DNA of 64,000 nucleotides from an uncultured candidatus Porisulfidus sp. (lineage in GTDB: Bacteria; Pseudomonadota; Gammaproteobacteria; Poriferisulfidales; Poriferisulfidaceae). Where the stretch lies: the NCBI GenBank assembly GCA_965204575.1, contig OZ241993.1, positions 901,850 through 965,849 of the forward strand, given 5' to 3'. This document shows positions 1 to 51,532 of this stretch, in pieces; the stretch's first letter is position 1, and each line of letters begins with the position of its first letter. The notes beneath the pieces were generated by a model, which searched no databases, had not been told where the DNA came from, and worked only from the letters and a program-made list of their open reading frames with translations. The position numbers were made by a program, and so were the translations under genes.

Positions 1-1
1 T

Positions 2-397: not shown

Positions 398-1274
398 GTC
401 TGCTTGGGATGGGATTCAAGTCATAAGTGAATTCATGAAAGAGCGTGTAGAGCGGCAAAAAAACGTTGGTATGACGATGGTTATCGATACGTGTATGGGG
501 CCGCAGATGTTGCAGGATATGCTTCTAGTTTCGAATGAGTATATTGATCACTGGAAGTTTAGTTATGGAGTATCTGCCGTGATGCCTGCAAACATACTCC
601 GTCAAATGCTCGATACATTAAATCAATACAACATCAATACATTTCCTGGAGGTACGCTGCTAGAGGCTGCGATCATTCAGAAAAATTGTCAATCGTACAT
701 GCTGCGTGCCAAAGAGATTGGATTCCGTTCAGTCGAAATTTCAGATGGAACGATCACACTGCCCATTAAGCGCAGGCGTAACGCAATCTTGTGTGCGCTA
801 GACAATGGATTGATTCCAATTACAGAGGTAGGTAAAAAGGACCCCACAAAGCAACCAAGCCCTGAAGAACTCGCAGACCTGATTCTGCAAGATTTATATT
901 TTGGTGCTGAGTATGTAATCTTGGATGCAAGAGAATCCGGGCGCGAAATCGGCATATTTGACCAAAATGGAGACTTGAAGCTCGAATTATTTGATAAAAT
1001 CTTATCGTTAGTTGGGCAAAAAAAAGAAAAGGTCATTTGGGAAGCCCCCCTAAGAAAACAACAGGCCGCCCTGATCAAACAAATTGGTCCAAATGTAAAC
1101 CTTGGGAATATAAGCCCCATGGACGTCTTGTCGCTAGAGTCATTACGCTTGGGACTTCAATATGAATCCTTAAGAGAAGTTGCCGACGAGTCTACCCAGC
1201 GTGGAATGTGGGACCCTGATTCAGTAGAAAACTCTGATACAACCGAGATACCGCAAGAATCTGTAAAGAAATGA
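378..1274 (+). CDS. comA: (2R)-phospho-3-sulfolactate synthase (ComA family; XcbB1-like)
   Basis: 298 aa. Contains ComA-family hallmark segments GMTMVIDTCMG ... YIDHWKFSYGVS, matching ComA KGLTMVIDKGLG ... IDFVKFGWGTS. Low-GC codon usage. Stop overlaps the next start (ATGA). Confidence 0.8.
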   Translation: MRLSMSKSAWDGIQVISEFMKERVERQKNVGMTMVIDTCMGPQMLQDMLLVSNEYIDHWKFSYGVSAVMPANILRQMLDTLNQYNINTFPGGTLLEAAIIQKNCQSYMLRAKEIGFRSVEISDGTITLPIKRRRNAILCALDNGLIPITEVGKKDPTKQPSPEELADLILQDLYFGAEYVILDARESGREIGIFDQNGDLKLELFDKILSLVGQKKEKVIWEAPLRKQQAALIKQIGPNVNLGNISPMDVLSLESLRLGLQYESLREVADESTQRGMWDPDSVENSDTTEIPQESVKK

Positions 1275-2788: not shown

Positions 2789-4137
2789 CTTCATTATTCG
2801 TAGAATCCTCTATATACCAGAATTCCTGGAGTACGGAATCCTTGCGAAAAATTTTTGATGAGAAATCAAGAATCAGAACTTGGCTAGAAATATTGGCCGT
2901 CCTAGCAGAAGTCCAGTCAAAATTTGGGTTAATACCAAAATCAGCTGGAAATTCAATTAGGGAATTTTGCAGTCAAGTTGAGATCGATAGTGAATTACTT
3001 AATGACATCAAAGAAGGGTTTGAACAAAGTGGCCATTCCATGCAGGGCTTTATCAATGCTTTGGCAAAGCGTGGAGGCGAAGATGTAAAAAACTGGTTGT
3101 ATTTTGGCGCGACTGTACAAGATGTAACAGATACCTGGTTTTCGATCGCTTTGAGGGATGTCAGGGAACAGTTTTTGTTGGATATAAATGCAATATGTTC
3201 TATTACCAAAAATCTCATGAGCGAGCATCGCGACACGATCATGCCAGGGCGTACGCATGGACAACACGGGTTGCCTATAACATTTGGATTTAAGGTTGCG
3301 GGTTGGGCGTGTGAACTGGATCGTCATCGAACTCGGTTATCGCAATTGGGTAACCGAATGGACGAGGGGCAGTTATGTGGAGGCGTTGGATCACTTTCAT
3401 CGTTAGGCCGCCACGGTCTAGAAATTCAAAAGGAATTTTGTAATCGCCTCGGATTACGCGACCCCATTATCTCTTGGATTTCAAGTCGGGATGTATTTGC
3501 AGAATGGGGCCAGTTATTAGTGCTGATAACTGGAACTGCAGATCGTATCGGTCATGAAATTTATAATTTGCAAAGGACAGAAATTGCAGAACTTATTGAG
3601 ATTACGCCTATAGAAACCGTAGGCAGTATTACGATGCCGCATAAACAAAACCCAGAAATATCCGAACATCTGGGAACGCTTGCCAGAGTCGTTCGCCATA
3701 ATGCTGCAATTCTTCTTGAGGGCTTAGTCACTGATCATGAACGAGATGGTCGATCTTGGAAAAGTGAATGGCATGTCCTGCCGCTCATAACTTTAGTATC
3801 GGGAAAATCTCTAGAGTTACTGAAATTAATATTGTCAAACTTAGAAGTACAAACACTGAAAATGAAAGAGAACTTAGAAATCAGTGGCGAACAGATATTT
3901 TCAGAAGGTGTAATGCTGGCGTTAGCAAAAAAACTGGGGAAAAACCAGGCTCAAAAAATAGTCTACAAGGAAGCAATGAATGCGCGTAAGAAAGGAATTT
4001 CATTCAGAGAGGCTGTTTTGAATAACTCTCAAATTTCATCCAATCTAAGTGCTGAAGATATCGATGAGATTTTTAAAAATGAAAATCGTCTTGGTTTATG
4101 TACAGCGATGGTTGATAGAGTGCTAAACAAAATATGA
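2785..4137 (+). CDS. aspartase/fumarase-superfamily lyase, adenylosuccinate-lyase / 3-carboxymuconate-cycloisomerase-like (candidate XcbD1/XcbC1-type)
   Basis: 450 aa. Signature SITMPHKQNPEISE resembles the PurB/PcaB-type SSxMPHKxNP motif; also TIMPGRTHGQHGLPITFG. ATGA overlaps at both ends. Confidence 0.75.
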   Translation: MTSLFVESSIYQNSWSTESLRKIFDEKSRIRTWLEILAVLAEVQSKFGLIPKSAGNSIREFCSQVEIDSELLNDIKEGFEQSGHSMQGFINALAKRGGEDVKNWLYFGATVQDVTDTWFSIALRDVREQFLLDINAICSITKNLMSEHRDTIMPGRTHGQHGLPITFGFKVAGWACELDRHRTRLSQLGNRMDEGQLCGGVGSLSSLGRHGLEIQKEFCNRLGLRDPIISWISSRDVFAEWGQLLVLITGTADRIGHEIYNLQRTEIAELIEITPIETVGSITMPHKQNPEISEHLGTLARVVRHNAAILLEGLVTDHERDGRSWKSEWHVLPLITLVSGKSLELLKLILSNLEVQTLKMKENLEISGEQIFSEGVMLALAKKLGKNQAQKIVYKEAMNARKKGISFREAVLNNSQISSNLSAEDIDEIFKNENRLGLCTAMVDRVLNKI

Positions 4138-5126
4138 GTACTCAAACACTCGCATCTGATGACTTGCCGAAAATCAGCCGTTGTGAGTTCGCACAATTTC
4201 CCACTCCTTTGCAGCGGTTTAAAAAACTGGAAAAAGATCTCAATGATATTGAGCTATGGGTTAAACGCGATGACCTAATCGAATTTGGTTATGGGGGAAA
4301 TAAAGTCAGGGCACTTGAATACATAGCGGCAGACGCATTAAAGAGGGGGTCGAAAACGTTAATTACGGGTGCAGGTGTACAGTCCAATCATGTACGTGCA
4401 ACGGCAGCAGTGGCAGCTTATTTAGATCTGAATTGTATCGCTATCTACTGGGGCAGCCCCCCAAAAGAAGTTACAGGCAATTATTACCTGACCAAATTGT
4501 TGGGAGCAGAAACCAGATTTACACACGATACTGATCGAAGCTCGGTAGATACAATGATCCGACTTGTTGAGCAAGAACTGATGCATGGTGATGCCCTTCC
4601 TTATTCAATCCCGCGAGGAGGAGCATGTGCACTAGGGGTAATCGCTCACATGTTTGCGGCGAAGGAATTATTTGAGCAGTGCCAAAGCAAAGAAATAAAT
4701 GTCGATCTTGTAACGCTTGCAGTGGGTTCTGGAGGGACTATAGCTGGTTGGGTACTTGCACGAATCTTGTATGACCATCCTTGGCGAATCGAAGGCTTTA
4801 CTGTGAGTCGGCCTGCCAAGGAGTTAAAGGAAATTGTTCATAATTTAGTACAACAAGCCGCCGTAGTATTGAATGTCGCAGTAAACATAAATTTGGAGGA
4901 GATAGTAATCCGTGAGGGCTACATTGGTGATGGATACGGGATACCAAGTATTGAAGGGAATGAAACAATTAAAGATGTTGCAATCAAGCAAGGTGTTTTT
5001 TTTGATCCGACGTATACAGGAAAAGCATTTGCTGGACTTTCAGATTTAATAAATAATGGTTTCTACAAGGACATTCAAACAGCCGTGTTTTTACATACAG
5101 GAGGAGAGCCGGTTTTGTTTAGTTAG
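4134..5126 (+). CDS. PLP-dependent D-cysteine desulfhydrase / ACC-deaminase family enzyme (XcbE1-like)
   Basis: 330 aa. TPLQRF ... VKRDDL ... GGNKVRALEYI ... GxQSNHVRATAAVAA matches the ACC deaminase/DcyD family; the PLP lysine context is conserved. Confidence 0.8.
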   Translation: MSTQTLASDDLPKISRCEFAQFPTPLQRFKKLEKDLNDIELWVKRDDLIEFGYGGNKVRALEYIAADALKRGSKTLITGAGVQSNHVRATAAVAAYLDLNCIAIYWGSPPKEVTGNYYLTKLLGAETRFTHDTDRSSVDTMIRLVEQELMHGDALPYSIPRGGACALGVIAHMFAAKELFEQCQSKEINVDLVTLAVGSGGTIAGWVLARILYDHPWRIEGFTVSRPAKELKEIVHNLVQQAAVVLNVAVNINLEEIVIREGYIGDGYGIPSIEGNETIKDVAIKQGVFFDPTYTGKAFAGLSDLINNGFYKDIQTAVFLHTGGEPVLFS

Positions 5127-5140
5127 TATAGGGTCAACAA

Positions 5141-6586
5141 ATGACAGAAGTTAAAACTACAACTATTCCTGATTTGCAAACAAGTGCAATGTCGACGGAT
5201 AGCGATGAACGCGAAATTTTAAAATTGGTGGAGAATGCCAGATTTGCACAATTGCAAGTAAATTCCTATACGCAAGAACAAGTAGATGAATTAGTGACAT
5301 CAATTGCCTGGAGCGTTATCAAAAATAGAGAAGAATTGGCACGCATGGCTGTTGATGAGGGTGAGTTTGGAAATTACGCTGATAAAGTAACAAAGATTTA
5401 CAATCGCGTAATAGGAACATTGGCGGATATGCGTTCAGTCAAGACTGTTGGTGTAGTTGAAGAGGACCCTGAGACCGGAATAACAAAGCTCGCTAAACCC
5501 GTGGGTGTAATTGGTGCACTTATTCCGGCAACAGGTCCTGATGCAACGCCGCCCGTCAAGGCATTAGGCGCGATTAAAGCAAGAAACGCGTTGATCATAG
5601 CGCCACACCCAAGGACAAAAAGAAGTTCAGCTAGAGTAGTCGAATGCATACGAGAAGGTTGTACTCGCGTTGGTGCCCCTGAAGACCTGGCACAAGTGAT
5701 AACCAGCCCTTCAATTCAAAAGACAAAAGTGCTAATGGAAAATGTAGATCTCATCGTGGCAACGGGGGGCATGAGTATGGTGAAAGCCGCATACAGCTCA
5801 GGGAAACCTGCATATGGAGTAGGTGTAGGGAATGCGGTACATATAGTGGATGAAACCGCAGACCTCAACGATGCCGCTGATATGATTGCAAAGGCAAAGA
5901 CATTTGATTTTGCAACAAGCTGCTTGGCGGATAACGCCATAGTAGTTCATCAAGATATCTACAAAGTACTAGTAAACAAGTTGATAGAACTTGGTGGTTA
6001 TTTATGTAATAAAGCAGATAAAAATAGCCTTGAAAAAGTTATGTGGCCAAAAGATGCCCATATCCCATCTCCTGAAATCATCGCGAAATCTGCAGAGTCA
6101 ATTGCGAAGAAGGCACAAATTGATATTCAGCCTGGCAAAAGCTTTCTGTTAGTAGAAGAAACCGGAATTGGAGAAGGCCATCCGTTCTCTGGAGAAAAAC
6201 TGTCCGTTGTTTTAGCCGTCTATCAATATTCGGGTAAAATCGAAAATGCGGTAGATGTCGTAAATAGAATTACGAATTATCAGGGCTTGGGACATACATG
6301 CGGAATACATTCACAATCTGAAGCAAACATCAACTATGTTGCCCTAAATACAAAAACAGCAAGAGTCATCGTGAATCAAAATCTTAATGAAGGAGCAGGC
6401 AGCCCCAGAAACGGATTGCCCTATACATTGTCACTTTCCTGTGGGACATGGGGAGGGAACATCACAACCGAAAATGTCAATGTTAGAAACTTTATGAATG
6501 TGACCTGGGTTTCACGTCCAGTACGTCCTCGTGCGTTTAACGAAGAGGAGCTGTTTGAAAATTATTGGAACAAATATGGCAAGTAA
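5141..6586 (+). CDS. CoA-acylating aldehyde dehydrogenase (EutE/PduP/SucD-like ALDH)
   Basis: 481 aa. Related to acylating ALDHs (DLIVATGGMSMVKAAYSSGKPAYGVGVGN ... ADNAIVV). No typical NAD-ALDH Glu/Cys decapeptide. SD-like GGAG upstream. Confidence 0.65.
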   Translation: MTEVKTTTIPDLQTSAMSTDSDEREILKLVENARFAQLQVNSYTQEQVDELVTSIAWSVIKNREELARMAVDEGEFGNYADKVTKIYNRVIGTLADMRSVKTVGVVEEDPETGITKLAKPVGVIGALIPATGPDATPPVKALGAIKARNALIIAPHPRTKRSSARVVECIREGCTRVGAPEDLAQVITSPSIQKTKVLMENVDLIVATGGMSMVKAAYSSGKPAYGVGVGNAVHIVDETADLNDAADMIAKAKTFDFATSCLADNAIVVHQDIYKVLVNKLIELGGYLCNKADKNSLEKVMWPKDAHIPSPEIIAKSAESIAKKAQIDIQPGKSFLLVEETGIGEGHPFSGEKLSVVLAVYQYSGKIENAVDVVNRITNYQGLGHTCGIHSQSEANINYVALNTKTARVIVNQNLNEGAGSPRNGLPYTLSLSCGTWGGNITTENVNVRNFMNVTWVSRPVRPRAFNEEELFENYWNKYGK

Positions 6587-6621
6587 GAATCAGTTATTGA
6601 GATTTTCTCGGCTATACATGG

Positions 6622-8136
6622 GTGCATGACATGAAACATTATGAGTTAGGGACTGTAGAAGACCTAAAAAATTCTACCCGATTAAAACAAGAGGGTTTTG
6701 ATGAAAATTTTTTAAAAGGAAAACGCCCTTCACCGATCGAACCGGTACAAAATGTTATGGATTTGGCCGATGATATTAACAGCAAGAAATATGATGCCGT
6801 AATTGTTGGAAGTGGCCCGGGAGGATCAGCTGTTGCAAGAGAACTGGCAAGGGCAGGAAAAAAAGTAGTCGTACTGGAGTATGGGAAAGATCATCGAGGT
6901 AAATGGTATTACGGAACTGTCGCAGGACCTTTTCTCTACACCGAAAAACGTGGCTTTTTAAAATCTAAGGAAGGGGTAACAATTGTCCGCCCGATGCTTA
7001 CTGGGGGGGCAACCAACATGTTTGCAAGTGCTGCTTCAGGCCCTCCATCTTGGTGGTTTGATAAAACGGGTGTGGATATAGAGTCTGAAGTTAACGAAAC
7101 CATTGATGAGCTTCGGATTGAGGCGTTACCTGAAGAACTCACTGGCGCTGCATCACAACGTATTGGAGAAGCAGGCAGAGATCTAGGCATGGACTGGGTG
7201 CCCCAAACAAAATTCATTCATCCAAAGCGGTGTTACTCTGAATTAGATTGCGGTGATAAATGCATGTTTGGTTGTCGATGTGGAGGCAAGTGGACTGCAA
7301 ATGAATATTTGGATCAAGCTATTGAGGCCGGTGCGTCCGTTATTACCGAGTGTAACGTTCATAATGTTGAGATTGAAGATGGCGTAGCAACCGGGGTATA
7401 TGCTGAAGTACACGGGGAAAGATTCAGACTGAATGGCCAGGTCGTTATTGTTTGTGCTGGAGGAATTGGCACACCTAGAATTTTACAAAATTCAGGCATT
7501 CATAATGCTGGAGATGCACTGGGTGTAGACACTACATTTGTTGTATATGGTGTCATCAAAGAGAAAGGAAATACTGGTGATCCACCTATGACGATCAGCT
7601 ATTGTGACGATGAGAATGGTTTGATGTATTCGACACTCACTCAGCCATTTGGGCTATTTGCGCTTACTCAATATTACAAAGGTTGGAGGCATTTAAAGAA
7701 AGTGCCCAAGTTTCCGCGTATGCTAGGAATTATGGTTAAGATAAAAGAGGGCCTTAAAGGCTATGTGGCACCGGATGGACAGATCAGTATGCCTTTGTTG
7801 CATGATGATTTCCTCCGGGCAAACATTGGGTTCAGTACTAGCAAAAGTATTCTTATGAAAGCGGGATGTGATCCAAATACTATTTTTTGGAACCCCCCAA
7901 GAGGAACACATCCATGCGCAACAGTGCGTATAGGTGATCACTTGGATTCCGATCTAAAAACTCTTGCATTTGATAACTTATATGTCTCGGATGCGAGCAC
8001 TTTCCCATTACCCCTGGTACGTCCTCCGACACTTACAATTATTGGGCAAAGCAAGAGGTTGGCAAAGCATCTTATTGAAACCAAACTCAAAGACACTCAA
8101 ATTCAGAAAGAGGAAAATATGGCATTGGCACAATAG
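6622..8136 (+). CDS. GMC-family FAD-dependent oxidoreductase
   Basis: 504 aa. N-terminal FAD fold DAVIVGSGPGGSAVARELARAGKKVVVLEYG. Its length and C-terminal region fit GMC oxidoreductases. Confidence 0.7.
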   Translation: MHDMKHYELGTVEDLKNSTRLKQEGFDENFLKGKRPSPIEPVQNVMDLADDINSKKYDAVIVGSGPGGSAVARELARAGKKVVVLEYGKDHRGKWYYGTVAGPFLYTEKRGFLKSKEGVTIVRPMLTGGATNMFASAASGPPSWWFDKTGVDIESEVNETIDELRIEALPEELTGAASQRIGEAGRDLGMDWVPQTKFIHPKRCYSELDCGDKCMFGCRCGGKWTANEYLDQAIEAGASVITECNVHNVEIEDGVATGVYAEVHGERFRLNGQVVIVCAGGIGTPRILQNSGIHNAGDALGVDTTFVVYGVIKEKGNTGDPPMTISYCDDENGLMYSTLTQPFGLFALTQYYKGWRHLKKVPKFPRMLGIMVKIKEGLKGYVAPDGQISMPLLHDDFLRANIGFSTSKSILMKAGCDPNTIFWNPPRGTHPCATVRIGDHLDSDLKTLAFDNLYVSDASTFPLPLVRPPTLTIIGQSKRLAKHLIETKLKDTQIQKEENMALAQ

Positions 8137-8183
8137 AAAATGCATGCAATTTTTTGTGCATTAAATAATTTACAAAAAGAAAA

Positions 8184-8846
8184 TTGGAAGAACTAGAATT
8201 AATCAGCTTAAAACTATGTCCTTTTGTACAAAGGGCGGTGATAGTTTTAAATCACAAAAACATAAATTATAAAATCACTCATGTGGACTTGGAGAATCCA
8301 CCAGGCTGGTTTAATAAAATCTCACCATTAAAGAAAGTTCCGCTTCTAAAGATAGGTGAAAAAGATGTCCTGTTTGAATCAGCGGTTATCTGTGAATACA
8401 TAGATGATGTTACACCAATCAAGTTACGGCCAGAAAACCCGCTCCAATTGGCATACAATCGTGCATGGATTGAATTTGGATCTACATGCCTTGTAGATCA
8501 GTATTTGCTGCTTTTAAAAAAAACAGAGAAAGAGTTTAAAGAGCAAGCTGATCAAATCATCAGTAAACTACATTTAGTAGAGAATACTTTGAATAATCAG
8601 CCATTTTTTAATGGCGAACAATTCTCGCTTGTAGATGCCGCATATGCTCCATTACTGATACGATATGAAATCATAAATAATATTATTCCAATATTTAATT
8701 CTCAGAGCTTTGAAAAGCTTTCAAACTGGTCAGATACGATTCTTGGATCAAGCGCTGTACAAGAATCAATAGAATCAGATTTCCTCACCCAGTATAAAGA
8801 CAAAATTGCAGGTTTCGACGGATACTTGTCATCCCATATTAGCTAA
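8184..8846 (+). CDS. glutathione S-transferase-like protein (thioredoxin-fold N-domain)
   Basis: 220 aa. N-terminal GST-like fold LCPFVQRA ... KVPLL ... ESAVICEYI, followed by a helical C-domain. Confidence 0.55.
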   Translation: MEELELISLKLCPFVQRAVIVLNHKNINYKITHVDLENPPGWFNKISPLKKVPLLKIGEKDVLFESAVICEYIDDVTPIKLRPENPLQLAYNRAWIEFGSTCLVDQYLLLLKKTEKEFKEQADQIISKLHLVENTLNNQPFFNGEQFSLVDAAYAPLLIRYEIINNIIPIFNSQSFEKLSNWSDTILGSSAVQESIESDFLTQYKDKIAGFDGYLSSHIS

Positions 8847-8886
8847 AGATTAGCTAGAAAAACTCTACTCTAAAAAACTTTCTTTT

Positions 8887-10026
8887 GTGAATTTACTTGC
8901 ATCCAGATCTGCAGTTTGTGCTGCATTGATATTGGCCATAGGAATGGGTTTTGGACGTTTTTGTTTTACAGGCATTTTCCCTGTAATGGCTGATGAAGGA
9001 TCGTTGACACTAGATGGGGGCGCCTATGTGGCATCTGCAAACTACGCAGGATATTTGCTTGGTGCATTGTTAGCTATTAATACGCACCCTAATGACTCGT
9101 TTAAGCTGTGTCTTTATTCGATTTTAGGTACCGCATTGACAATTGCGTTTTTGGCTGTGTACCAGAGCGTGTGGTTTTTGATTGTCATGCGTGGCCTTTC
9201 AGGTGTATTCAGCGCCACTGCAATGGTTGGCGCCTCATCATGGTTATTGCAGTACAAAGGGGATCATCGTGCTTCGCCAATTTTATACGCAGGTATTGGG
9301 TTTGGAATTTTAATTTCGGCAGAAATCATCGCTATAGGTCAGCACTTTGGATTTGGTAGTGCGGAATTATGGTTCTTGCTAGGCGGAGCGGGTTTGCTAA
9401 TTGGGATACCTTGTATTTGGCTGATGAAAATGGATTCAGCGGGAAAGACCGTAGACCAAATCTATACAGGCATTCACAGTGCAGAAGTATTTGACAAGTG
9501 GAAACTAGTTTTAATTTATGGGTTAGCAGGGTTTGGTTATATCATTACCGCCACTTACCTTCCCTTGATAATCAAAAATGACTTGGGCATTGGAATCGGT
9601 ATCCACATATGGGCAGTGTTTGGATTAGGAGCGATGTTCTCATGTTTTTTTTGGCATGGGGTTCAAGCTAAACTGGGCTCAAGAAATTCGTTATTTGTTA
9701 ATTTAATTATCCAATCGATCGGTGTAGCGCTTCCAGTATTCAGTCAAACATTATCCAGTTATTTGTGCAGTGCACTCTTGGTTGGTGGCACATTTATGGG
9801 ATTTGTTACTATTGCTAAATCAATAGCACTGCAAATATCTCATGAAGCACGAGGTAACCTCATGGCAATCATGACTACTTCGTTTGGAATAGGCCAGATT
9901 GCGGGTCCGCTGGTTGCCAACGAGACCTATGATGTGAGCAAATCGTTTTCTTTGTCTTTTCTCATGGCAAGTATGGCGCTAATTATTGCAGCCGTAATCT
10001 CTTTAAAAGCTAACAGGAAAATTTGA
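8887..10026 (+). CDS. MFS-type membrane transporter (YbfB/YjiJ-like)
   Basis: 379 aa, about 12 predicted TM helices. Conserved N-terminal FGRFCFTGIFPVM segment typical of YbfB/YjiJ. GTG start as in the track. Confidence 0.55.
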   Translation: MNLLASRSAVCAALILAIGMGFGRFCFTGIFPVMADEGSLTLDGGAYVASANYAGYLLGALLAINTHPNDSFKLCLYSILGTALTIAFLAVYQSVWFLIVMRGLSGVFSATAMVGASSWLLQYKGDHRASPILYAGIGFGILISAEIIAIGQHFGFGSAELWFLLGGAGLLIGIPCIWLMKMDSAGKTVDQIYTGIHSAEVFDKWKLVLIYGLAGFGYIITATYLPLIIKNDLGIGIGIHIWAVFGLGAMFSCFFWHGVQAKLGSRNSLFVNLIIQSIGVALPVFSQTLSSYLCSALLVGGTFMGFVTIAKSIALQISHEARGNLMAIMTTSFGIGQIAGPLVANETYDVSKSFSLSFLMASMALIIAAVISLKANRKI

Positions 10027-10097: not shown

Positions 10098-10183
10098 TGG
10101 TGCCGATGGCCGGACTCGAACCGGCACGGCTTTCGCCACTGCCCCCTCAAGACAGCGTGTCTACCAGATTCCACCACATCGGC
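10098..10183 (-). tRNA. leuU: tRNA-Leu (anticodon GAG), class II, 86 nt including CCA
   Basis: Reverse complement is GCCGATGTGGTGGAATCTGGTAGACACGCTGTCTTGAGGGGGCAGTGGCGAAAGCCGTGCCGGTTCGAGTCCGGCCATCGGCACCA. 7-bp acceptor stem, anticodon loop TTGAGGG, long variable arm. Sits directly downstream of secG, as leuU does in E. coli. Coordinates ±1-2 nt. Confidence 0.85.
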
Positions 10184-41188: not shown

Positions 41189-44101
41189 ATGCCGAAAGCG
41201 ATCACCACCGAGCCTGCCTTCAACCTTGAACTCAGTCGGGTTTTGCGCCAAAAGCATCCCCGCTGGAAAAATGCGATTGGAGCAGAACAGGTGAGGGTTT
41301 TGCGGGGTCAGCCTCAGAAACAGCCGGACATCGTCCTTTCCCCCGCAGGCAGTTCCCCGGTGGTGCTCGAAACCGAGTTTCTACCTGCCGCTACCGTGGA
41401 AAGCGACGCTGTAGCTCGCTTGGGTGGCATCTTGGCAAGTGATGATCGGAAGATTGAGCAAGCCATTGCCCTGCGGATTCCGAAGGACTTGCGCACTGTT
41501 CCGCAGGCGGAACTGACTGAAGCTATTGAAAATGCACAGTTTACTTACTGCATTCTTTGTGTTGGGGAAGCCGATGCTGTCGAGCGTCTGCCGAAAAGAG
41601 ACTGGCTGTGTGGCGGCATTGACGATGTAGCAGCTTGCGCCGACTTGGCTTCCCTGTCCGAGGCGTTAGTGCTGAAAAGTACGGATGCATTAGAACTCGG
41701 AGTGGCCCAAGCGGCCAATTTGCTGGAGTCTCTCCCGGGTTGCCCGGACAGAAAACTGGGACGTAAACTCTGCCAGGAACCGGGTGAACAGACGAACCGA
41801 ATGGCGGTTGCCATCATCGCCAATGCGTTGGTGTTCCACCTATGCGTTGAAGGACGACAGGGCATTCCCCGGTTGAGCGAACTCGAGTCGGCTCAGGGGC
41901 GGTTGACCAAGCTTAAAGTTCGACAATGCTGGATGCGGATCCTCTATGAGATCAATTACTGGCCAATTTTCAGCATCGCCACAGAACTTCTGGAATGTAT
42001 GCCATCCAACACGGCCAACGCGGTGCTTAACTGTCTTTACAAAACAGCAGATGAGTTACTCGAACTTGGGGCGGTCAGGTTGAACGACCTGTCGGGTCGG
42101 ATGTTCCAGAAGTTGATCACTGACCGCAAGTTTCTCGCGACTTTCTACACCCTGCCCGTTTCCGCGACCATGCTCGCGGAACTGGTTGCATCCCGATTGC
42201 AGGTTGATTGGCGAAGTAGGGAATCCGTAACAAATCTAAAAATCGCCGATTTGGCTTGTGGTACCGGAACGCTTGTGGGAGCCCTATACCAGTCGGTCTT
42301 GGCCCGATGCCGTCGTGCCGGACAGGACGATGCTGAAATTCACTCGATCATGATTGAGGATGCGTTATACGCTTTCGACATCATGCCGGCCGCGACGCAT
42401 CTCGCGGCCTCAACCTTGTCCGGAGCCCATCCCGGTATCACTTTCGGAGAGACGAAGGTTGTGACCATGCCATACGGACATGGCGAAGACCATCCGTTGA
42501 GTTTGGGCTCGCTAGATTTAATCATGAACGAGAGCGTCCTTTCCTTATTCAGTTTGAGCCGGGAACAGTTGGTGGGTGGGAAAGGAATCAAGGCAGACAC
42601 CGAAATCAGCGTGCCTCAGAAATCGCTGGACATCATCATCATGAATCCGCCGTTCACCCGCCCTTGTGGGCAGGAAGCGGCCAAGGTCGGTATCCCAGTG
42701 CCTTCTTTCGCAGGCTTTGGCACTTCGGAAGAAGAGCAAAAGGCCATGTCGGAGAAGCTACGGGAAATAGGCAAGAAATTGAAAAAATCCCGGATAAAAA
42801 TCGACCCGATAAGAGGGGTGCTTGCGGGACATGGGAATGCGGGCTTGGCATCAAACTTTATTGACCTTGCGCACGAAAAACTGCGGGAAGGAGGAATTCT
42901 GGCGCTGGTGCTGCCTTTCACGTTCGTCCAAGGGGATGCTTGGCATGGCGCCCGCTCCCTGCTCAAGGCCTACTACAAGAACATCGTGATTGTTTCCATT
43001 GCAACAACGGGTGAAACCGAAAGGGCGTTTTCTGCAGATACGGGCATGGCCGAAGTCTTAGTGGTCGCTGAGCGAAAAGAGGCCAGCGACGTGGCACAGC
43101 CGGCAGGTTCGGTGGAATATGCCAACCTGACACGCCGTCCCGACTCCTTGCTCGAAGCTTCTCTTTTGGCGAAGCATATCCATGGCTCGACACCCGACGA
43201 GGAAATCAGCCGCATCGATGCATCCATATCCAGCGGAGGGTGCGCGGGAGTACGGTCCGTCTCAAGCCTAGGAACAACTATGCTCGGTTTGTTCAAGACG
43301 GGTTCTATCAAATTCCCAAGAAGGAAAGGCGGGATTGCTTTGCCGGTGACCCCGCTGGGAGACCTCGGAGAGCGAGGAGCCCATGTTCTGGACATTACAG
43401 GAAATCCGCCAAGCCCCGGGAAACCGCCTAGGGGGCCATTCGACAAGGCCCCCCTTCCAAGAGATGGTTTTCCCACCTATCCCGCGCTCTGGAACCACGA
43501 TGCGAAAAAGGAAACGTGCTTGATGGTTGAGCCGGATGGCCAAGGCAATGTCCGGGAAGGGTGTGCAGACCGAGCCGATGATTTCTGGAACCAGTTTTCT
43601 TCGAAGTTGCATGTCAACGTTGATTTCCGACTGAACTCACAGTCGCTTGCGGCCTGCCTGACACCAAAGAAAACAATAGGAGGGCGCGCTTGGCCGAATT
43701 TTCGGCTTCACGAAACAGCTTGGGAGATTCCGGTGGTACTTTGGGCCAACACGACTATTGGGCTAATGGCTTTCTGGTGGATCGGGTCTCGCCAGCAACA
43801 AGGCAGGTCCATTCTTCCCGTGTCTCAGCATGAACGGTTTCCAGTGCTGGACCCACGTCGTTTGGAATCAGACCAAGTCAAGCGAGTGGGGAGAATCTTC
43901 CGGGATTTTCTGACGAAAGACTTCCTTCCCGCGAATGAGGCTTACCGGGATGATGTGCGAAAAGCGTTGGACCGAGCAATGTTGGTCGATTTGATTGGAG
44001 TTTCGGAGAATGTGCTGGAGTCGCTTGATTTGCTGCGAGACCAATGGTGCGCCGAGCCAAGCGTTCATGGAGGGAAAAGTACCCGACCAGATTCACTGTG
44101 A
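41189..44101 (+). CDS. 970-aa multidomain gamma-class N6-adenine DNA methyltransferase fusion (Type IIG/IIL-like restriction-modification candidate or standalone defence methyltransferase)
   Basis: Motif I IADLACGTGTLVGALY (about aa 350) and motif IV IIIMNPPFTRP (about aa 478) in gamma-class order. About 340-aa N-terminal domain with a possible degenerate nuclease core (PDIVLS ... VVLETEF). About 480-aa C-terminal region is plausibly a target-recognition domain. No separate R or S gene adjacent. Confidence 0.55.
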   Translation: MPKAITTEPAFNLELSRVLRQKHPRWKNAIGAEQVRVLRGQPQKQPDIVLSPAGSSPVVLETEFLPAATVESDAVARLGGILASDDRKIEQAIALRIPKDLRTVPQAELTEAIENAQFTYCILCVGEADAVERLPKRDWLCGGIDDVAACADLASLSEALVLKSTDALELGVAQAANLLESLPGCPDRKLGRKLCQEPGEQTNRMAVAIIANALVFHLCVEGRQGIPRLSELESAQGRLTKLKVRQCWMRILYEINYWPIFSIATELLECMPSNTANAVLNCLYKTADELLELGAVRLNDLSGRMFQKLITDRKFLATFYTLPVSATMLAELVASRLQVDWRSRESVTNLKIADLACGTGTLVGALYQSVLARCRRAGQDDAEIHSIMIEDALYAFDIMPAATHLAASTLSGAHPGITFGETKVVTMPYGHGEDHPLSLGSLDLIMNESVLSLFSLSREQLVGGKGIKADTEISVPQKSLDIIIMNPPFTRPCGQEAAKVGIPVPSFAGFGTSEEEQKAMSEKLREIGKKLKKSRIKIDPIRGVLAGHGNAGLASNFIDLAHEKLREGGILALVLPFTFVQGDAWHGARSLLKAYYKNIVIVSIATTGETERAFSADTGMAEVLVVAERKEASDVAQPAGSVEYANLTRRPDSLLEASLLAKHIHGSTPDEEISRIDASISSGGCAGVRSVSSLGTTMLGLFKTGSIKFPRRKGGIALPVTPLGDLGERGAHVLDITGNPPSPGKPPRGPFDKAPLPRDGFPTYPALWNHDAKKETCLMVEPDGQGNVREGCADRADDFWNQFSSKLHVNVDFRLNSQSLAACLTPKKTIGGRAWPNFRLHETAWEIPVVLWANTTIGLMAFWWIGSRQQQGRSILPVSQHERFPVLDPRRLESDQVKRVGRIFRDFLTKDFLPANEAYRDDVRKALDRAMLVDLIGVSENVLESLDLLRDQWCAEPSVHGGKSTRPDSL

Positions 44102-48290: not shown

Positions 48291-48856
48291 TCGAGCCGAC
48301 CATCCCGAATCTGCTGACGGGACTGCGGATCGCCCTGATCCCGGTTTTCTCCGGGGTGTTTTTCATCCCCGGATGGGGTCCTCAGGCCTCGGCCGTGCTG
48401 TTTGCGCTTGCCAGCCTGACGGATTGGGCGGACGGCTACCTGGCCCGGAAACTGGGCCAGCATTCCGCGTTCGGGGCTTTCCTGGACCCGGTGGCGGACA
48501 AACTGATCGTATGCGTCGCCCTGGTGCTGCTGGTGTCGCGCGACAACAGCCTGTGGCTGGTTGCCCCGGCCTGCGTGATCATCGGGCGGGAGATCGCGAT
48601 TTCCGCCTTGCGCGAATGGCTGGCCGGCACGCGCGCCCGTTCGCGGATTTCGGTGTCGTGGCTCGGCAAGTTCAAGACCCTGCTGCAACTGGCCTCGCTG
48701 GTGCTGTTGCTATGGGCGACGCCCGACTCGTCCGATCCGCTCTACGTGTATGGTTTGGCCCTGCTGGGGGTGGCGGCCGCGATGACGCTGGTATCGATGG
48801 GGTACTACTTGTGGTTGGCGTTGCACAGCGAAGATTCGGAGGCCTCCGGCGCCTGA
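48287..48856 (+). CDS. pgsA: CDP-diacylglycerol--glycerol-3-phosphate 3-phosphatidyltransferase
   Basis: 189 aa starting at MIEPTIPNLLT (ATGA overlap with the uvrC stop). CDP-alcohol phosphatidyltransferase motif DWADGYLAR ... AFLDPVADK. The track shows an artefactual 469-aa extension. Confidence 0.85.
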   Translation: MIEPTIPNLLTGLRIALIPVFSGVFFIPGWGPQASAVLFALASLTDWADGYLARKLGQHSAFGAFLDPVADKLIVCVALVLLVSRDNSLWLVAPACVIIGREIAISALREWLAGTRARSRISVSWLGKFKTLLQLASLVLLLWATPDSSDPLYVYGLALLGVAAAMTLVSMGYYLWLALHSEDSEASGA

Positions 48857-48969
48857 AAGCCAGCTCTGAAGGCGCGGTTTCTGTTCCTGCTGCAGTCGGT
48901 TGCAGCATCGGGGCGCTTTCAACCCTGTCGCCGTCCATTCAACCGAAAAGCGGACATAACAGCTTTGCG

Positions 48970-49024
48970 TTGACATCCGCAGAGCGGATGCCTCGTCTCG
49001 AGAATAATGTAACAATGTAACAAT
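48970..49024 (+). promoter_or_regulatory. candidate promoter/operator: TTGACA followed by a 7-3-7 palindrome CATCCGC-aga-GCGGATG, then the tandem direct repeat AATGTAACA-ATGTAACAAT
   Basis: Read directly upstream of the His-rich TonB receptor gene. The palindrome overlaps the -35-like hexamer. No good -10 was found at 17-nt spacing, so promoter assignment is weak. Confidence 0.3.
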
Positions 49025-49156
49025 TCGCCGGAAATCTCCTGTCAGCGGGGCCCGCTCGTAATGTCTCCAGTTTTTGCATCCCTAGAAACACGCCTGCCAG
49101 CAAGCGCAAGGCATAGTCTGCGCGACGGCATTCCTCGCGCGAATCGCCCCGGACGC

Positions 49157-51532
49157 ATGCGGCGATATACAGCTGGCCTCGCAGCGGGACTGCTGCTCTG
49201 CGTCGCTCCGCTTTTGGCGGTGGCGGATGAGGGTCCGGAAGTGATTGTCATCAAGTCGCACCCGCTGGGCGACAAGGGTTTGGCGATGCCGGCGACCAGT
49301 CTGCACGGCGAGGCGTTGGATCGGGCGAGAGACGTTAATCTCGGCGCCACGCTCAGCCGGCAACCCGGCATCCATCAATCGGCATTCGGCACCGTCGTCG
49401 GCCGGCCGGTGGTGCACGGCTTGGCCGGCCCGCGGGTACGCGTGATGCAGGACCGCCTGGACACGATGGATGCGTCGATCGTGAGTGCCGACCATGCGGT
49501 TGCCGTCGAATCGTTCATTGCCGAACGGGTCGAGGTGCTCCGCGGCCCGAGCATCCTGCTGTACGGCTCCGGTGCCATTGGCGGTGCCGTGAACGTACAG
49601 ACCGGGCGCATTCCGCAGGCACCGGTCGACGGCTTCTCCGGCGCAACGGAGGCGCGCCACAACAGCGCGACGGGTGGCGACACCCTTGCGTTCAAACTCA
49701 ACGGAGGCCAGGGCGGTTTCTCCTGGCACCTGGACGGTGCGACCAAGGATGGCGACGACTACGACATCCCGGGTTATGCGGAATCGGCCTATCGGCGTGC
49801 CCAGGAAGCCGGTCATGACGACGATCACGATGATCATGATGATGAGGGTGAAAACGGGCATGACGACCACGATGAGGAGGAGCACCACGACGAAGAGGAG
49901 CACGAGGAGGAAGCCCGCGACAAACTCTCCGGCAGCCACTTCGAGTCGGACTCCATCGCAGGCGGGGCCTCATGGCATGGCGACTGGGGTTTCGCGGGCC
50001 TCTCGGTCAGCCGCATGGAATCCAAATATGGCCTGCCGGGGCACGCGCACGCGCACGGGCATGGGCACGAGGAGGAAGAGGAACACAACGGAGAAGAGGA
50101 GCACCATGACGAAGAAGAGCACGCAGAGGAAGAGGAGCACCATGACGAAGAGGAGCACGCAGAGGAAGAGGGCTCAGCATTGCTGGACATGGAGCAGACG
50201 CGCATAGACTTCGAAATGGACCTGCTCTCGCCGTTTGCCAGCGTCGAGCGCCTCAACATGCGCGTCGGCTACAGCGATTACAAGCACGTGGAATCTGAAC
50301 CTGGCGCCCATGCCGGCACCAAGTTCTCCAACGACGCCTGGGAAGTGCGCACCGAGCTCCACCATGAAGCCGGCCCATGGGAGGGCGTGGCGGGCCTGCA
50401 GTACGCCTACCGGGACTTTGAAGCACTCGGCGAGGAAGCCTTTGTCCAGCCGGCGATCACCAACAACATCGGCGCGTTCTGGGTCGGTCGCCGCACGTAC
50501 GAGACTTTCGACCTGGAAGCCGGCGTGCGCCTGGAGCGTGTATCGCACAATCATAATCCGATAGCGGACGACCATGACCACGAGCATGAAGACGAGCACG
50601 AAGGGGAGCACGAGGAGGAGCACGAAGAGGGGAGTGACACGGATTTCACGATCCACGCGATTTCCATCGGCGCCCTCGTGCCGCTTGGCGACCGGCTCGA
50701 GCTGGGCCTGCTCGCCAGCCATTCCAGCCGTGCGCCCATCGCGGAGGAACTCTACGCCGGAGGCCCGCATCTGGTCACCACCACCTACGAAATCGGCGAC
50801 GACGGACTGAGCAAGGAACGTGCCGCCAGCATCGCCTTGCGGCTTCAATATGCCGCACCGACCTGGGATGCCGCCGTGTCCACCTACTTCACCCGTTTCT
50901 CCGACTACGTCTACTGGCAGGCAACCGGCAGGACGGTGAACAATGCAGGCAATGATTGCAATCATGATGCCGCAAACGAAGAAGGGTATGACGACCTAGA
51001 CGAGGATGCGCAGGCTGAATCCCGCGAGCATTACTGTGAGGAACACGGTGATGACTACACCCTCCGGGAAGAAAGGGTTGCGCAGGAAGATGCGGAATTC
51101 TTCGGCATCGACGCGGAAGCCAGCGCCCAGGTCGCGTCCTGGCCCGGCGGCGAGGCGCGCCTGCACGGCAAGTTCGATTACGTGGACGCGAAATTGTCCG
51201 TCAGCGGCAATGACCGGCTGCCGCGCATTCCGCCGCTGCGGTACGGCATCGGGCTGAGCGCCCGCTGGGGCACCGCAACCATGGGCGTCGATTACCTGCG
51301 GGCCGAAGACCAGGACGAGACGGCGGAGCACGAACTGCCGACCGACGGCTACGACGACCTGTCCGTCCATGCCACGCTGGAGCTTCCGGCCGGCAACGGG
51401 GCGACGATGGAATTCTTCCTGTACGGCAAGAACCTGACCAACGACGAACAGCGCTTGCACACTTCGCACATCAAGGACCTTGCGCCGCAGCCCGGACGCA
51501 CGTTTGAAGTCGGGGGGCGGCTTCGGTTCTAG
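49157..51532 (+). CDS. TonB-dependent outer-membrane receptor with His/Asp/Glu-rich insertions (ZnuD-like metal-uptake candidate)
   Basis: Start proposed at MRRYTAGLAAGLLLCVAPLLAVA (signal peptide); the track ORF starts at 49061. Plug domain (VEVLRGPSILLYGSGAIGGAVNV), beta-barrel, C-terminal ...GGRLRF. Three low-complexity blocks such as HDDDHDDHDDEGENGHDDHDEEEHHDEEEHEEE. Confidence 0.75.
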   Translation: MRRYTAGLAAGLLLCVAPLLAVADEGPEVIVIKSHPLGDKGLAMPATSLHGEALDRARDVNLGATLSRQPGIHQSAFGTVVGRPVVHGLAGPRVRVMQDRLDTMDASIVSADHAVAVESFIAERVEVLRGPSILLYGSGAIGGAVNVQTGRIPQAPVDGFSGATEARHNSATGGDTLAFKLNGGQGGFSWHLDGATKDGDDYDIPGYAESAYRRAQEAGHDDDHDDHDDEGENGHDDHDEEEHHDEEEHEEEARDKLSGSHFESDSIAGGASWHGDWGFAGLSVSRMESKYGLPGHAHAHGHGHEEEEEHNGEEEHHDEEEHAEEEEHHDEEEHAEEEGSALLDMEQTRIDFEMDLLSPFASVERLNMRVGYSDYKHVESEPGAHAGTKFSNDAWEVRTELHHEAGPWEGVAGLQYAYRDFEALGEEAFVQPAITNNIGAFWVGRRTYETFDLEAGVRLERVSHNHNPIADDHDHEHEDEHEGEHEEEHEEGSDTDFTIHAISIGALVPLGDRLELGLLASHSSRAPIAEELYAGGPHLVTTTYEIGDDGLSKERAASIALRLQYAAPTWDAAVSTYFTRFSDYVYWQATGRTVNNAGNDCNHDAANEEGYDDLDEDAQAESREHYCEEHGDDYTLREERVAQEDAEFFGIDAEASAQVASWPGGEARLHGKFDYVDAKLSVSGNDRLPRIPPLRYGIGLSARWGTATMGVDYLRAEDQDETAEHELPTDGYDDLSVHATLELPAGNGATMEFFLYGKNLTNDEQRLHTSHIKDLAPQPGRTFEVGGRLRF
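50096..50167 (+). repeat. 36-nt near-perfect tandem duplication (gaggagcaccatgacgaagaRgagcacgcagaggaa x2) inside the receptor gene, encoding EEHHDEEEHAEE twice
   Basis: Direct reading of 50096-50131 against 50132-50167 shows one mismatch (a/g). Confidence 0.7.

What the first reader, a model, noticed from the sequence alone, without database searches (positions are those of the whole stretch)
48970..51532. TonB-dependent receptor with three poly-His/Asp/Glu low-complexity inserts and a distinctive upstream operator-like architecture
Blocks HDDDHDDHDDEGENGHDDHDEEEHHDEEEHEEE, HAHAHGHGHEEEEEHNGEEEHHDEEEHAEEEEHHDEEEHAEEE and DHDHEHEDEHEGEHEEEHEE lie between the plug and barrel, and a 36-nt unit is perfectly duplicated in tandem. 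His-rich surface loops are known in zinc-regulated receptors (ZnuD type), but this density of His-Glu-Asp runs is extreme and could act as a metal-capture antenna. Upstream, a perfect 7-3-7 palindrome (CATCCGCagaGCGGATG) overlaps a TTGACA and is followed by the direct repeat ATGTAACA-ATGTAACA. Neither resembles canonical Fur or Zur boxes closely.
Basis: partly seen in the sequence, partly recalled or inferred. Interest (0 to 1): 0.6.

Follow-up and report, generated by a model that had tools for sequence, protein, structure and literature searches.

The report
Zur-controlled ZnuD-type zinc receptor gene
This is an ordinary member of the known ZnuD family of outer-membrane zinc receptors, preceded by a recognisable zinc-repressor (Zur) binding site; its histidine/acid-rich surface loops are a family trait that is unusually long here and changes length quickly between close relatives.

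Summary
The ORF, the three His/Asp/Glu blocks, the palindrome and the ATGTAACA repeat are all present where stated. The protein is a ZnuD-type TonB-dependent receptor. Neisseria ZnuD is its best sequence match and best fold match among solved structures, and the four residues that hold zinc in ZnuD are conserved. A confident model shows 22 barrel strands. The blocks lie in extracellular loops L2, L3 and L6, not between plug and barrel. Such tracts in L2 and L3 occur across the family; this protein has 85 residues of them, against a family median of 50 and a maximum of 134. Tract lengths differ even between proteins 97-99.7% identical elsewhere, and the 36-nt duplication (35/36 identical) is absent from the nearest relatives sampled. 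The "direct repeat" is a degraded 7-1-7 Zur box. It is a perfect palindrome in two orthologues, fits the Zur consensus in all nine, and does not fit the Fur consensus. Zur-like sites also cluster upstream of homologues in other genomes. The 7-3-7 palindrome is statistically unremarkable and missing in some orthologues. Verdict: new member of a known kind, low to moderate interest. Extra clade-specific inserts in L6 and L8 are the only unusual feature.

The parts
48970..48975 (+). TTGACA, a -35-like hexamer
   Evidence: Read directly. Variants (TTGACA, TTGATA, TTGGCA, TGGACG) are kept in orthologues with an intact upstream region. No acceptable -10 lies 16-18 nt downstream, and the promoter scan found nothing. 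Its role is unproven.
48974..48990 (.). Perfect 7-3-7 palindrome CATCCGCagaGCGGATG
   Evidence: It is 6-3-6 in L008 and 5-3-5 with both-side changes in L006/L010. It is broken in L009, L002 and L005. It is absent in L001 and L007, where an HNH gene replaced the upstream DNA. No T-run follows it, so it is not an intrinsic terminator. 69 comparable palindromes occur in the window.
49004..49026 (.). Zur-box-like operator ATAATGTAACAATGTAACAATTC (core 49008-49022)
   Evidence: It matches the consensus GAAATGTTATAATATAACATTTC at 17/23 and the core at 11/14. It is the only core site scoring 11/14 or more in the 64 kb window. It is kept at the same position in all nine orthologues: perfect 7-1-7 TGTAACAaTGTTACA in L001 and L008, and TGTTATAATATTACA (13/14) in L003, L005, L006 and L010.
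49011..49016 (+). Putative -10 hexamer AACAAT inside the operator
   Evidence: It aligns with a perfect TATAAT in L002, L003, L005 and L006. A weak -35 (ATGCCT, 48988-48993) lies 17 nt upstream. This is inference; the consensus scan did not call it.
49043..49055 (+). Short palindrome AGCGGGgCCCGCT just before the first ATG
   Evidence: L008 has AGCGGAgTCCGCT, a change on both sides. Function unknown.
49061..51532 (+). ZnuD-family TonB-dependent receptor gene (823 aa; alternative start at ATG 49157 gives 791 aa)
   Evidence: Both ATGs are conserved, and indels between them are in frame. The codon-position substitution pattern there (36:32:53) is only weakly coding-like, so the true start is undecided.
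49157..49225 (+). Signal peptide MRRYTAGLAAGLLLCVAPLLAVA
   Evidence: Read from the translation. Inference from its form: basic residues, a hydrophobic stretch, then AVA.
49238..49258 (+). TonB-box-like segment EVIVIKS
   Evidence: It aligns with the (I)EE(I)VV(V)A segment of homologues, and E60 is invariant. Inference.
49286..49588 (+). Plug domain
   Evidence: Pfam PF07715, residues 76-176, E 2.5e-13.
49490..49495 (+). D144-H145, equivalent to ZnuD zinc ligands Asp99 and His100
   Evidence: Taken from the alignment to 4rdr and the ligand list in PMC4557270. Both are invariant in alignment A1.
49814..49912 (+). His/Asp/Glu block 1, in extracellular loop L2
   Evidence: between strands 3 and 4; pLDDT below 50. 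Tandem repeats of 9 and 18 nt.
50042..50170 (+). His/Asp/Glu block 2, in extracellular loop L3, including the 2 x 36-nt tandem at 50093-50164
   Evidence: It aligns with ZnuD loop 3 cluster 2, HDDDNAHAHTH. The nearest relatives carry one copy of the 12-aa unit.
50291..50293 (+). E411, equivalent to ZnuD zinc ligand Glu340
50567..50629 (+). His/Asp/Glu block 3, in extracellular loop L6 (specific to the close clade)
   Evidence: L6 has a median of 8 aa in distant homologues, against 31 here.
50768..50770 (+). H570, equivalent to ZnuD zinc ligand His499
50939..51061 (+). Clade-specific insert in extracellular loop L8, Cys/His form (…DCNHD…HYCEEHGDDY)
   Evidence: The model predicts helices with pLDDT about 95. 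A non-homologous acidic form replaces it in close orthologues, with sharp DNA borders.

Best explanation
The gene encodes a ZnuD-family TonB-dependent outer-membrane receptor that most likely imports Zn2+.

Regulation (inferred): when zinc is plentiful, a Zur-type repressor binds the 7-1-7 operator at 49008-49022, which overlaps the probable -10 element. The gene is switched on when zinc is scarce.

Transport (inferred by homology to the ZnuD structures): the disordered His/Asp/Glu tracts on extracellular loops L2, L3 and L6 act as low-affinity, high-capacity capture sites. They pass metal to a buried high-affinity site formed by D144, H145, E411 and H570. TonB-driven movement of the plug then releases the metal to the periplasm.

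Tract evolution (shown by comparison): the tracts are encoded by short GAR/GAY/CAY codon repeats. They expand and contract far faster than the rest of the protein changes. The 36-nt duplication is absent from the nearest relatives sampled, which fits a recent expansion.

What is shown: family membership, fold, loop positions, ligand conservation, operator conservation and length variation. What is inferred: zinc specificity, Zur control and the antenna role.
For: - Best NCBIfam match is ZnuD NF038289, E 3e-102.
- Best solved-structure match by sequence is Neisseria ZnuD 4rdr, E 1e-59. The next matches are at about 1e-5.
- The AlphaFold model has pLDDT 82.5, pTM 0.82 and 22 strands. Its best fold matches are the ZnuD entries, at E 1.5e-47 to 8.2e-45, against 2.6e-31 for OprC.
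- ZnuD zinc ligands Asp99, His100, Glu340 and His499 (PMC4557270) align to D144, H145, E411 and H570. All four are invariant in 24 sequences.
- His/Asp-rich loop-3 clusters are a described ZnuD feature, proposed and simulated as zinc capture sites.
- His/Asp/Glu tracts in L2 and L3 are present in most of 125 homologues.
- The operator matches the Zur consensus at 16-20 of 23 positions in all nine orthologues. That level was reached in at most 1 of 300 shuffles. The Fur consensus scores at shuffle level.
- The operator is retained in L001 and L007, where all DNA further upstream was replaced.
- Across 80 genome loci of homologues, 45 of 61 Zur-core sites lie in the 530 nt around the gene start.
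- Neisseria znuD has a comparable box and is derepressed in a zur mutant (PMC2895646).
- Loop lengths differ between proteins 97-99.7% identical outside the loops.
Against: - The score against the ZnuD model (343.5 bits) is far below its curated cut-off of 950, and identity to Neisseria ZnuD is only about 25%. It is a distant relative, not an orthologue.
- No zur or znuABC gene lies in the window, and no other Zur box was found there. The repressor's presence in this organism is therefore not shown.
- The window's box is the most degraded copy in its right half, and no consensus promoter is detected.
- Some homologues have almost no His/Asp/Glu tract, so the tracts are not needed for the basic receptor function.
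- There are no expression or metal-binding data.
Confidence: 0.8

Rival explanations
1. The receptor takes up a different metal or a metal chelate (Ni, Co, Cu, Mn or a metallophore complex), and the operator is bound by another Fur-family regulator.
For: His/Asp/Glu tracts bind several divalent metals without much selectivity (general chemistry). The second-best fold match is the copper receptor OprC. The score is below the ZnuD family cut-off. Calmettes et al. note that substrates of TonB-dependent receptors are hard to predict from sequence.
Against: All four ZnuD zinc ligands are conserved. The operator fits the Zur consensus and not the Fur consensus. Zur-like boxes recur upstream of homologues in many genera. 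The ZnuD fold matches are about 14 or more orders of magnitude better than the OprC match.
Confidence: 0.1
2. The His/Asp/Glu tracts are tolerated slippage products, or serve surface variation (escape from phage or host recognition), with no role in metal capture.
For: Lengths vary between near-identical proteins: L2 is 27 versus 52 aa at 99.7% identity, and L3 is 60 versus 32 aa at 98.5%. The tracts are built from short tandem DNA repeats. The model predicts them as disordered. Some homologues lack them, and P0029 has short loops. L8 occurs as two unrelated cassettes, a pattern typical of exposed variable loops.
Against: The His-rich, acidic composition is maintained in the same loops across the family down to about 45% identity. 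His/Asp-rich L3 stretches are also present in Neisseria ZnuD and its homologues in other pathogens. Cadmium sites in ZnuD map to such a cluster. Pure slippage would not keep His enriched in three separate loops.
Confidence: 0.15
3. The 7-3-7 palindrome overlapping TTGACA is a second operator for an unknown regulator, giving the gene dual control.
For: It is a perfect palindrome overlapping a -35-like hexamer. It is partly kept, with changes on both arms, in L008, L006/L010 and L003. Its right arm overlaps the weak -35 inferred for the -10 inside the Zur box.
Against: Comparable palindromes occur about once per kb in the window. It is broken in L009, L002 and L005 and absent in L001 and L007. 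The intergenic region as a whole evolves at about the neutral rate, 0.72 identity against about 0.8 at third codon positions, so partial retention carries little weight.
Confidence: 0.1

Closest known systems
Neisseria meningitidis ZnuD (PDB 4RDR, 4RDT, 4RVW; NCBIfam NF038289)
   Same: Plug plus 22-strand barrel. It is the best sequence match and best fold match. The four zinc ligands are conserved. A His/acid-rich flexible loop 3 is present. A Zur box lies upstream.
   Different: Identity is only about 25%, and the score is below the family cut-off. The tracts here are 21-43 residues long and sit in three loops (L2, L3, L6), against two 11-residue clusters in L3 of ZnuD. The tracts here are Glu-rich as well as His/Asp-rich. 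There is no Cys pair in L3; two Cys lie in a clade-specific L8 insert instead. The source appears to be an environmental, probably sponge-associated, gammaproteobacterium rather than a pathogen (inferred from metagenome-assembled genome (MAG) names).
Zur-regulated zinc receptors of other proteobacteria (P. aeruginosa ZnuD, A. baumannii ZnuD, Caulobacter ZnuK, ZnuL and ZnuM)
   Same: They are TonB-dependent receptors repressed by Zur through a palindromic operator that often overlaps the -10 element (PMC10393844, PMC4176598).
   Different: Their sequence relationship to this protein was not measured here. Nothing in the passages read describes multi-loop His/Asp/Glu tracts of this length in them.
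Gammaproteobacterial Zur box (GAAATGTTATAnTATAACATTTC; 7-1-7 core TGTTATAnTATAACA)
   Same: Matches at 17/23 and 11/14 in the window and up to 20/23 and 13/14 in orthologues. It has 7-1-7 symmetry and sits just upstream of the gene, overlapping a -10-like hexamer.
   Different: The lineage variant is TGTAACAaTGTTACA. The window carries one extra substitution (T to A at 49019) that makes it read as a direct repeat.
[quoted passage not shown]
   Same: It is a disordered His/Asp-rich segment thought to capture zinc and pass it to a high-affinity site. Both ZnuD papers draw this analogy.
   Different: It belongs to an unrelated fold in a different compartment. The likeness is functional only.

Membership tests
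TonB-dependent receptor | N-terminal plug domain followed by a 22-strand beta-barrel | tested here: met
   Pfam Plug (E 2.5e-13) and TonB_dep_Rec_b-barrel (E 5.5e-17). The model has 22 strands with short periplasmic turns.
TonB-dependent receptor | Signal peptide, TonB box near the mature N-terminus, and a C-terminal aromatic residue | tested here: met
   Read from the translation: MRRYTAGLAAGLLLCVAPLLAVA, then EVIVIKS aligned with the EEIVVVA segment of homologues, and the protein ends in RLRF. Judged by inspection only; no predictor was run.
ZnuD (NCBIfam NF038289, zinc piracy receptor) | Score above the curated family cut-off | tested here: not met
   343.5 bits against a cut-off of 950. 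It is the best-matching family by a wide margin, but this is not an orthologue of the Neisseria protein.
ZnuD-like zinc receptors (structural and functional sense) | High-affinity zinc site: Asp99, His100, Glu340 and His499 of ZnuD | tested here: met
   They align to D144, H145, E411 and H570 (with numbering). All four are invariant in alignment A1.
ZnuD-like zinc receptors (structural and functional sense) | His/Asp-rich clusters on extracellular loop 3 | tested here: met
   Residues 328-370 lie between strands 5 and 6 and align with the ZnuD L3 cluster HDDDNAHAHTH.
ZnuD-like zinc receptors (structural and functional sense) | Cys pair in L3 that brings the two His/Asp stretches together (Stork et al. 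2010) | tested here: not met
   L3 has no Cys. The only loop Cys pair is in the L8 insert.
ZnuD-like zinc receptors (structural and functional sense) | Zinc binding and zinc-dependent expression | not testable with these tools
   Needs metal-binding and expression experiments.
Zur operator | Palindromic (7-1-7) site matching the Zur consensus, conserved upstream of orthologues | tested here: met
   Matches of 16-20/23 in nine orthologues, at or above every shuffle or nearly so. Perfect 7-1-7 in L001 and L008. Family-wide enrichment, with 45 of 61 sites near the gene start.
Zur operator | Overlap with the promoter -10 or -35 element | tested here: inconclusive
   The box contains TATAAT in four orthologues and AACAAT in the window. 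No consensus promoter was called, and no transcription start site is known.
Zur operator | A zur gene and other Zur-box genes in the same genome | not tested
   None lies in the 64 kb window. The rest of the genome was not available.
Fur box | Match to GATAATGATAATCATTATC | tested here: not met
   Matches of 10-12/19, a level reached by 17-96% of shuffles.
Intrinsic terminator (for the 7-3-7 palindrome) | GC-rich stem followed by a T-run | tested here: not met
   No T-run follows 48990, and the terminator scan did not call it.

The most novel reading that the evidence does not exclude
In this (probably sponge-associated) lineage the receptor may have evolved a modular, fast-changing surface crown. 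It has repeat-encoded His/Asp/Glu tracts in three loops whose length changes between near-identical strains. It also has an L8 insert that exists as two unrelated cassettes, one of them a confidently folded Cys/His-bearing helical element. If selection acts on tract length, this would be a contingency-like way to tune metal-harvesting capacity or to vary an exposed receptor surface while keeping transport intact.
Probability: 0.15. Interest if true: 0.5.

Novelty: new member of a known kind. Interest (0 to 1): 0.25.

Why it matters
It gives a sound annotation, a Zur-regulated ZnuD-type zinc receptor, for a gene that databases label only as "TonB-dependent receptor". It extends the ZnuD design from pathogens to uncultured environmental gammaproteobacteria. 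The natural series of orthologues with tracts of 20 to 64 residues per loop offers a ready-made test of whether tract length sets zinc-capture capacity. It does not reveal a new kind of system.

Tried and rejected
- **Fur box:** the match is at shuffle level. A nickel-regulator consensus that I wrote from memory was also scanned; it is unreliable and I do not use it.
- **Palindrome as terminator:** there is no T-run, and the scan did not call it.
- **Known RNA element upstream:** Rfam at E up to 1 over 48700-49400 gave only a chance-level hit inside pgsA.
- **Sigma-70 promoter:** the consensus scan found none.
- **Coding status of the 32 codons between the two ATGs:** substitutions by codon position are 36:32:53, and indels are in frame, so this stays ambiguous.
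- **zur, znuABC or other zinc genes in the window:** the 30 proteins scanned were housekeeping or unrelated metabolic genes, and three had no Pfam hit.
- **Intergenic conservation as evidence of function:** rejected, because identity (about 0.72) is no higher than at third codon positions (about 0.8).
- **L8 difference as a frameshift:** rejected. The other reading frames contain stops, and the DNA is unrelated between sharp borders.
- **Literature on long His-rich loops in TonB-dependent receptors of sponge symbionts:** nothing relevant found.
- **Exact protein in the collection:** not present under either start.
Full report
**1. What is in the sequence**

ORF 49061-51532 (+) encodes 823 aa. 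A second conserved ATG at 49157 opens directly on a typical signal peptide, MRRYTAGLAAGLLLCVAPLLAVA. Short tandem DNA repeats with periods of 6, 9, 12, 18 and 36 nt underlie them.

The 36-nt unit (50093-50128 and 50129-50164) is 35/36 identical. The single difference is a synonymous GAA/GAG change, so the duplication is perfect only as protein.

Upstream, TTGACA (48970-48975) overlaps the perfect palindrome CATCCGCagaGCGGATG (48974-48990). An AATGTAAC repeat spans 49006-49024.

**2. What the protein is**

- Pfam finds Plug and TonB-dependent barrel domains.
- The best NCBIfam model by far is ZnuD (NF038289): E 3e-102 and 343.5 bits. This is well under that model's cut-off of 950.
- Among solved structures, Neisseria ZnuD (4rdr) matches at 1e-59. 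Every other receptor matches at about 1e-5 or worse.
- An AlphaFold model built from 109 homologues has pLDDT 82.5 and pTM 0.82. Its best fold matches are the ZnuD entries (E 1.5e-47 to 8.2e-45, TM 0.70-0.92). OprC follows at 2.6e-31.
- Calmettes et al. (PMC4557270) give the buried high-affinity zinc site of ZnuD as Asp99, His100, Glu340 and His499. In the alignment these correspond to D144, H145, E411 and H570. All four are invariant in the 24-sequence alignment.

The protein is therefore a distant relative of ZnuD (about 25% identity) that keeps the zinc site. It is not an orthologue of the Neisseria protein.

**3. Where the inserts sit**

The model has 22 barrel strands joined by turns of 2-4 residues on one side and long loops on the other.

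- Block 1 lies between strands 3 and 4, in loop L2.
- Block 2 lies between strands 5 and 6, in L3. This is the loop that carries the two His/Asp clusters of ZnuD.
- Block 3 lies between strands 11 and 12, in L6.

All three blocks have pLDDT near or below 50, so they are predicted to be disordered. They are extracellular loops of the barrel, not a linker between plug and barrel.

It contains two Cys and several His (…DCNHD…HYCEEHGDDY). The model predicts it as helices with pLDDT about 95.

**4. How unusual the tracts are**

His/Asp/Glu tracts in L2 and L3 are found across the family, including homologues at about 45% identity. Among 125 homologues the median total tract length is 50 residues and the maximum is 134. 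This protein has 85, and about 7% of homologues have as much or more. Stork et al. (PMC2895646) had already noted His/Asp-rich stretches in all ZnuD homologues they examined.

The L6 and L8 inserts are restricted to the close clade of about 70% identity or more. In distant homologues L6 has a median of 8 aa and L8 has 4 aa.

**5. Variation among strains**

Among close orthologues, loop lengths range as follows:

| Loop | Length range (aa) |
|---|---|
| L2 | 21-54 |
| L3 | 20-60 |
| L6 | 8-51 |
| L8 | 11-70 |

Within 90%-identity clusters, proteins that are nearly identical outside the loops still differ in tract length:

| Pair | Identity outside loops | Loop lengths (aa) |
|---|---|---|
| P0004 vs P0147 | 99.7% | L2: 27 vs 52 |
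| P0005 vs P0136 | 98.5% | L3: 60 vs 32 |
| P0001 vs P0130 | 99.0% | L6: 35 vs 50 |

The nearest relatives of the window protein (96% identical outside the loops) carry a single copy of the EEEHHDEEEHAE-type unit. The 36-nt duplication is therefore absent from the nearest relatives sampled, which fits a recent expansion in this lineage. The tracts change by in-frame repeat gain and loss much faster than the rest of the protein changes by substitution, and their composition is preserved.

L8 exists in two forms, the Cys/His form and an acidic helical repeat form (…DEAIELLE…ITEEAAIELLE…). The borders are sharp, the DNA between them is unrelated, and the other frames contain stops, so this is not a frameshift.

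**6. The upstream region**

I aligned the region from eight loci that share the uvrC-pgsA-receptor-rpsO-pnp arrangement. Two further genome loci, L009 and L010, carry the same block.

- In L001 and L008 it reads TGTAACAaTGTTACA, a perfect 7-1-7 palindrome.
- In L003, L005, L006 and L010 it reads TGTTATAATATTACA.
- In the window a single T to A change at 49019 makes it look like a direct repeat.
- Against the gammaproteobacterial Zur consensus GAAATGTTATAATATAACATTTC, the nine orthologues score 16-20 of 23. That level was reached in at most 1 of 300 shuffles. This consensus is established knowledge, and it agrees with the Neisseria sites quoted in PMC2895646.
- Against the Fur consensus they score 10-12 of 19, which is shuffle level.
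- It is the only core site scoring 11/14 or more in the 64 kb window.
- In L001 and L007 an HNH gene replaced everything upstream of the box, yet the box remains.
- In 80 genome loci of homologues (Xanthomonas, Stenotrophomonas, Luteimonas, Arenicella and many MAGs), 45 of 61 core sites lie within -500 to +30 of the match start. That interval is about 4% of the sequence scanned.
- Positions 6 and 10 of the core change together (C/G or T/A), as expected for a site bound by a dimer.
- In four orthologues the box contains a perfect TATAAT. The window has AACAAT at the same place (49011-49016).

No consensus promoter was called, so the promoter assignment is inference.

**7. The 7-3-7 palindrome**

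It is real but weak as evidence. The window holds 69 perfect palindromes with arms of at least 7 nt and loops of 0-6 nt, 12 of them with a 3-nt loop. The palindrome is shortened or shifted in L008, L006/L010 and L003. It is broken in L009, L002 and L005, and absent in L001 and L007.

The intergenic region as a whole is about 0.72 identical between orthologues, against about 0.8 at third codon positions of the flanking genes. Partial retention is what near-neutral drift would give. The palindrome has no T-run, so it is not a terminator. A separate hairpin followed by a T-run lies just after pgsA in L003 and L005. I treat a second operator as a low-probability rival.

**8. Mechanism**

Shown:
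- family, fold and loop topology;
- conservation of the zinc ligands;
- conservation of the operator;
- repeat-driven length variation.

Inferred:
- Zur represses the gene when zinc is plentiful.
- The disordered tracts collect Zn2+ at the cell surface and pass it to the buried D144/H145/E411/H570 site. This follows the "fishing net" model and the cadmium-bound clusters described for ZnuD.
- TonB-driven plug movement releases the ion to the periplasm.

Some homologues have almost no tract. The tracts therefore look like an accessory that raises capture capacity, not a requirement for transport.

**9. Context**

Thirty proteins elsewhere in the window were scanned against Pfam. Those with hits are housekeeping or unrelated metabolic genes, and none is a zur or znuABC gene. 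The closest genome records are uncultured gammaproteobacterial MAGs: "Chromatiales bacterium SRP109090_co1_9" at 79% and "Gammaproteobacteria bacterium COS4_bin_16" at 71%. Several related records carry names typical of sponge-microbiome studies, so the habitat assignment is an inference from names only. The exact protein is not in the 15-billion-sequence collection.

**10. Verdict**

This is a new member of a known kind. The finding is a correct sighting of a ZnuD-type receptor. Its "extreme" loops are the upper end of a family trait, and its "distinctive operator" is a Zur box with one substitution.

The points that go slightly beyond the textbook case are:
- the spread of tracts to three loops;
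- their rapid length change between near-identical strains;
- the two-cassette L8 insert.

Interest is 0.25.

Noticed in passing
window 1-10000, with tRNA-Leu(gag) at 10098-10183 (-): A 10 kb block with GC 0.39-0.44, against 0.60-0.70 elsewhere, ends at a tRNA-Leu gene. It carries eight same-strand genes: ComA phosphosulfolactate synthase, two Lyase_1 enzymes, a PLP enzyme, an aldehyde dehydrogenase, a GMC oxidoreductase, a GST and an MFS_4 transporter. It looks like a horizontally acquired sulfonate-type metabolic island, or possibly an assembly chimera.
   Followed up: partly
window 50939-51061; L007 (P0008), L002, L003 equivalents: The L8 insert of the receptor occurs as two unrelated cassettes in close orthologues: a Cys/His form and an acidic helical-repeat form. 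The DNA borders are sharp and there is no frameshift. The Cys/His form is modelled with pLDDT about 95.
   Followed up: partly
L001 5225-5803 and L007 5329-5901: An HNH-domain gene is inserted between pgsA and the receptor in two orthologous loci. It replaces the whole upstream region up to the Zur box. In L006 a 931-aa minus-strand gene is inserted at the same junction.
   Followed up: partly
L046 5549-5851 and L023 5567-5893: In more distant homologues (Arenicella, Candidatus Azophilus) a small exported ORF of about 100 aa with a Cys/His motif (…H…E.DDC.E.HC…) lies between the Zur-like site and the receptor gene. No such ORF exists in the window.
   Followed up: no
window 49061-49156: A conserved 96-nt stretch lies between two conserved in-frame ATGs. 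Its indels are in frame, but its substitution pattern is only weakly coding-like. It could be an unusually long N-terminal extension of the signal peptide or a 5' leader.
   Followed up: partly
window 41189-44101 (+): A 970-aa ORF has no Pfam match and lower GC (about 0.55) than its surroundings.
   Followed up: no
L004 (P0028), 6001-8523: One 76%-identical homologue sits at a different genomic site (psd-receptor-efp, next to a second TonB receptor and a SCO1/SenC gene). Its called ORF is fused to a DUF6788 N-terminus, and no Zur-core site scoring 11/14 or more lies in the locus.
   Followed up: partly
window 48888-48907: A second perfect palindrome, TGCTGCAgtcggtTGCAGCA, lies just after the pgsA stop. 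It is kept unchanged in L008, L003 and L005. It may be part of the pgsA 3' end.
   Followed up: no
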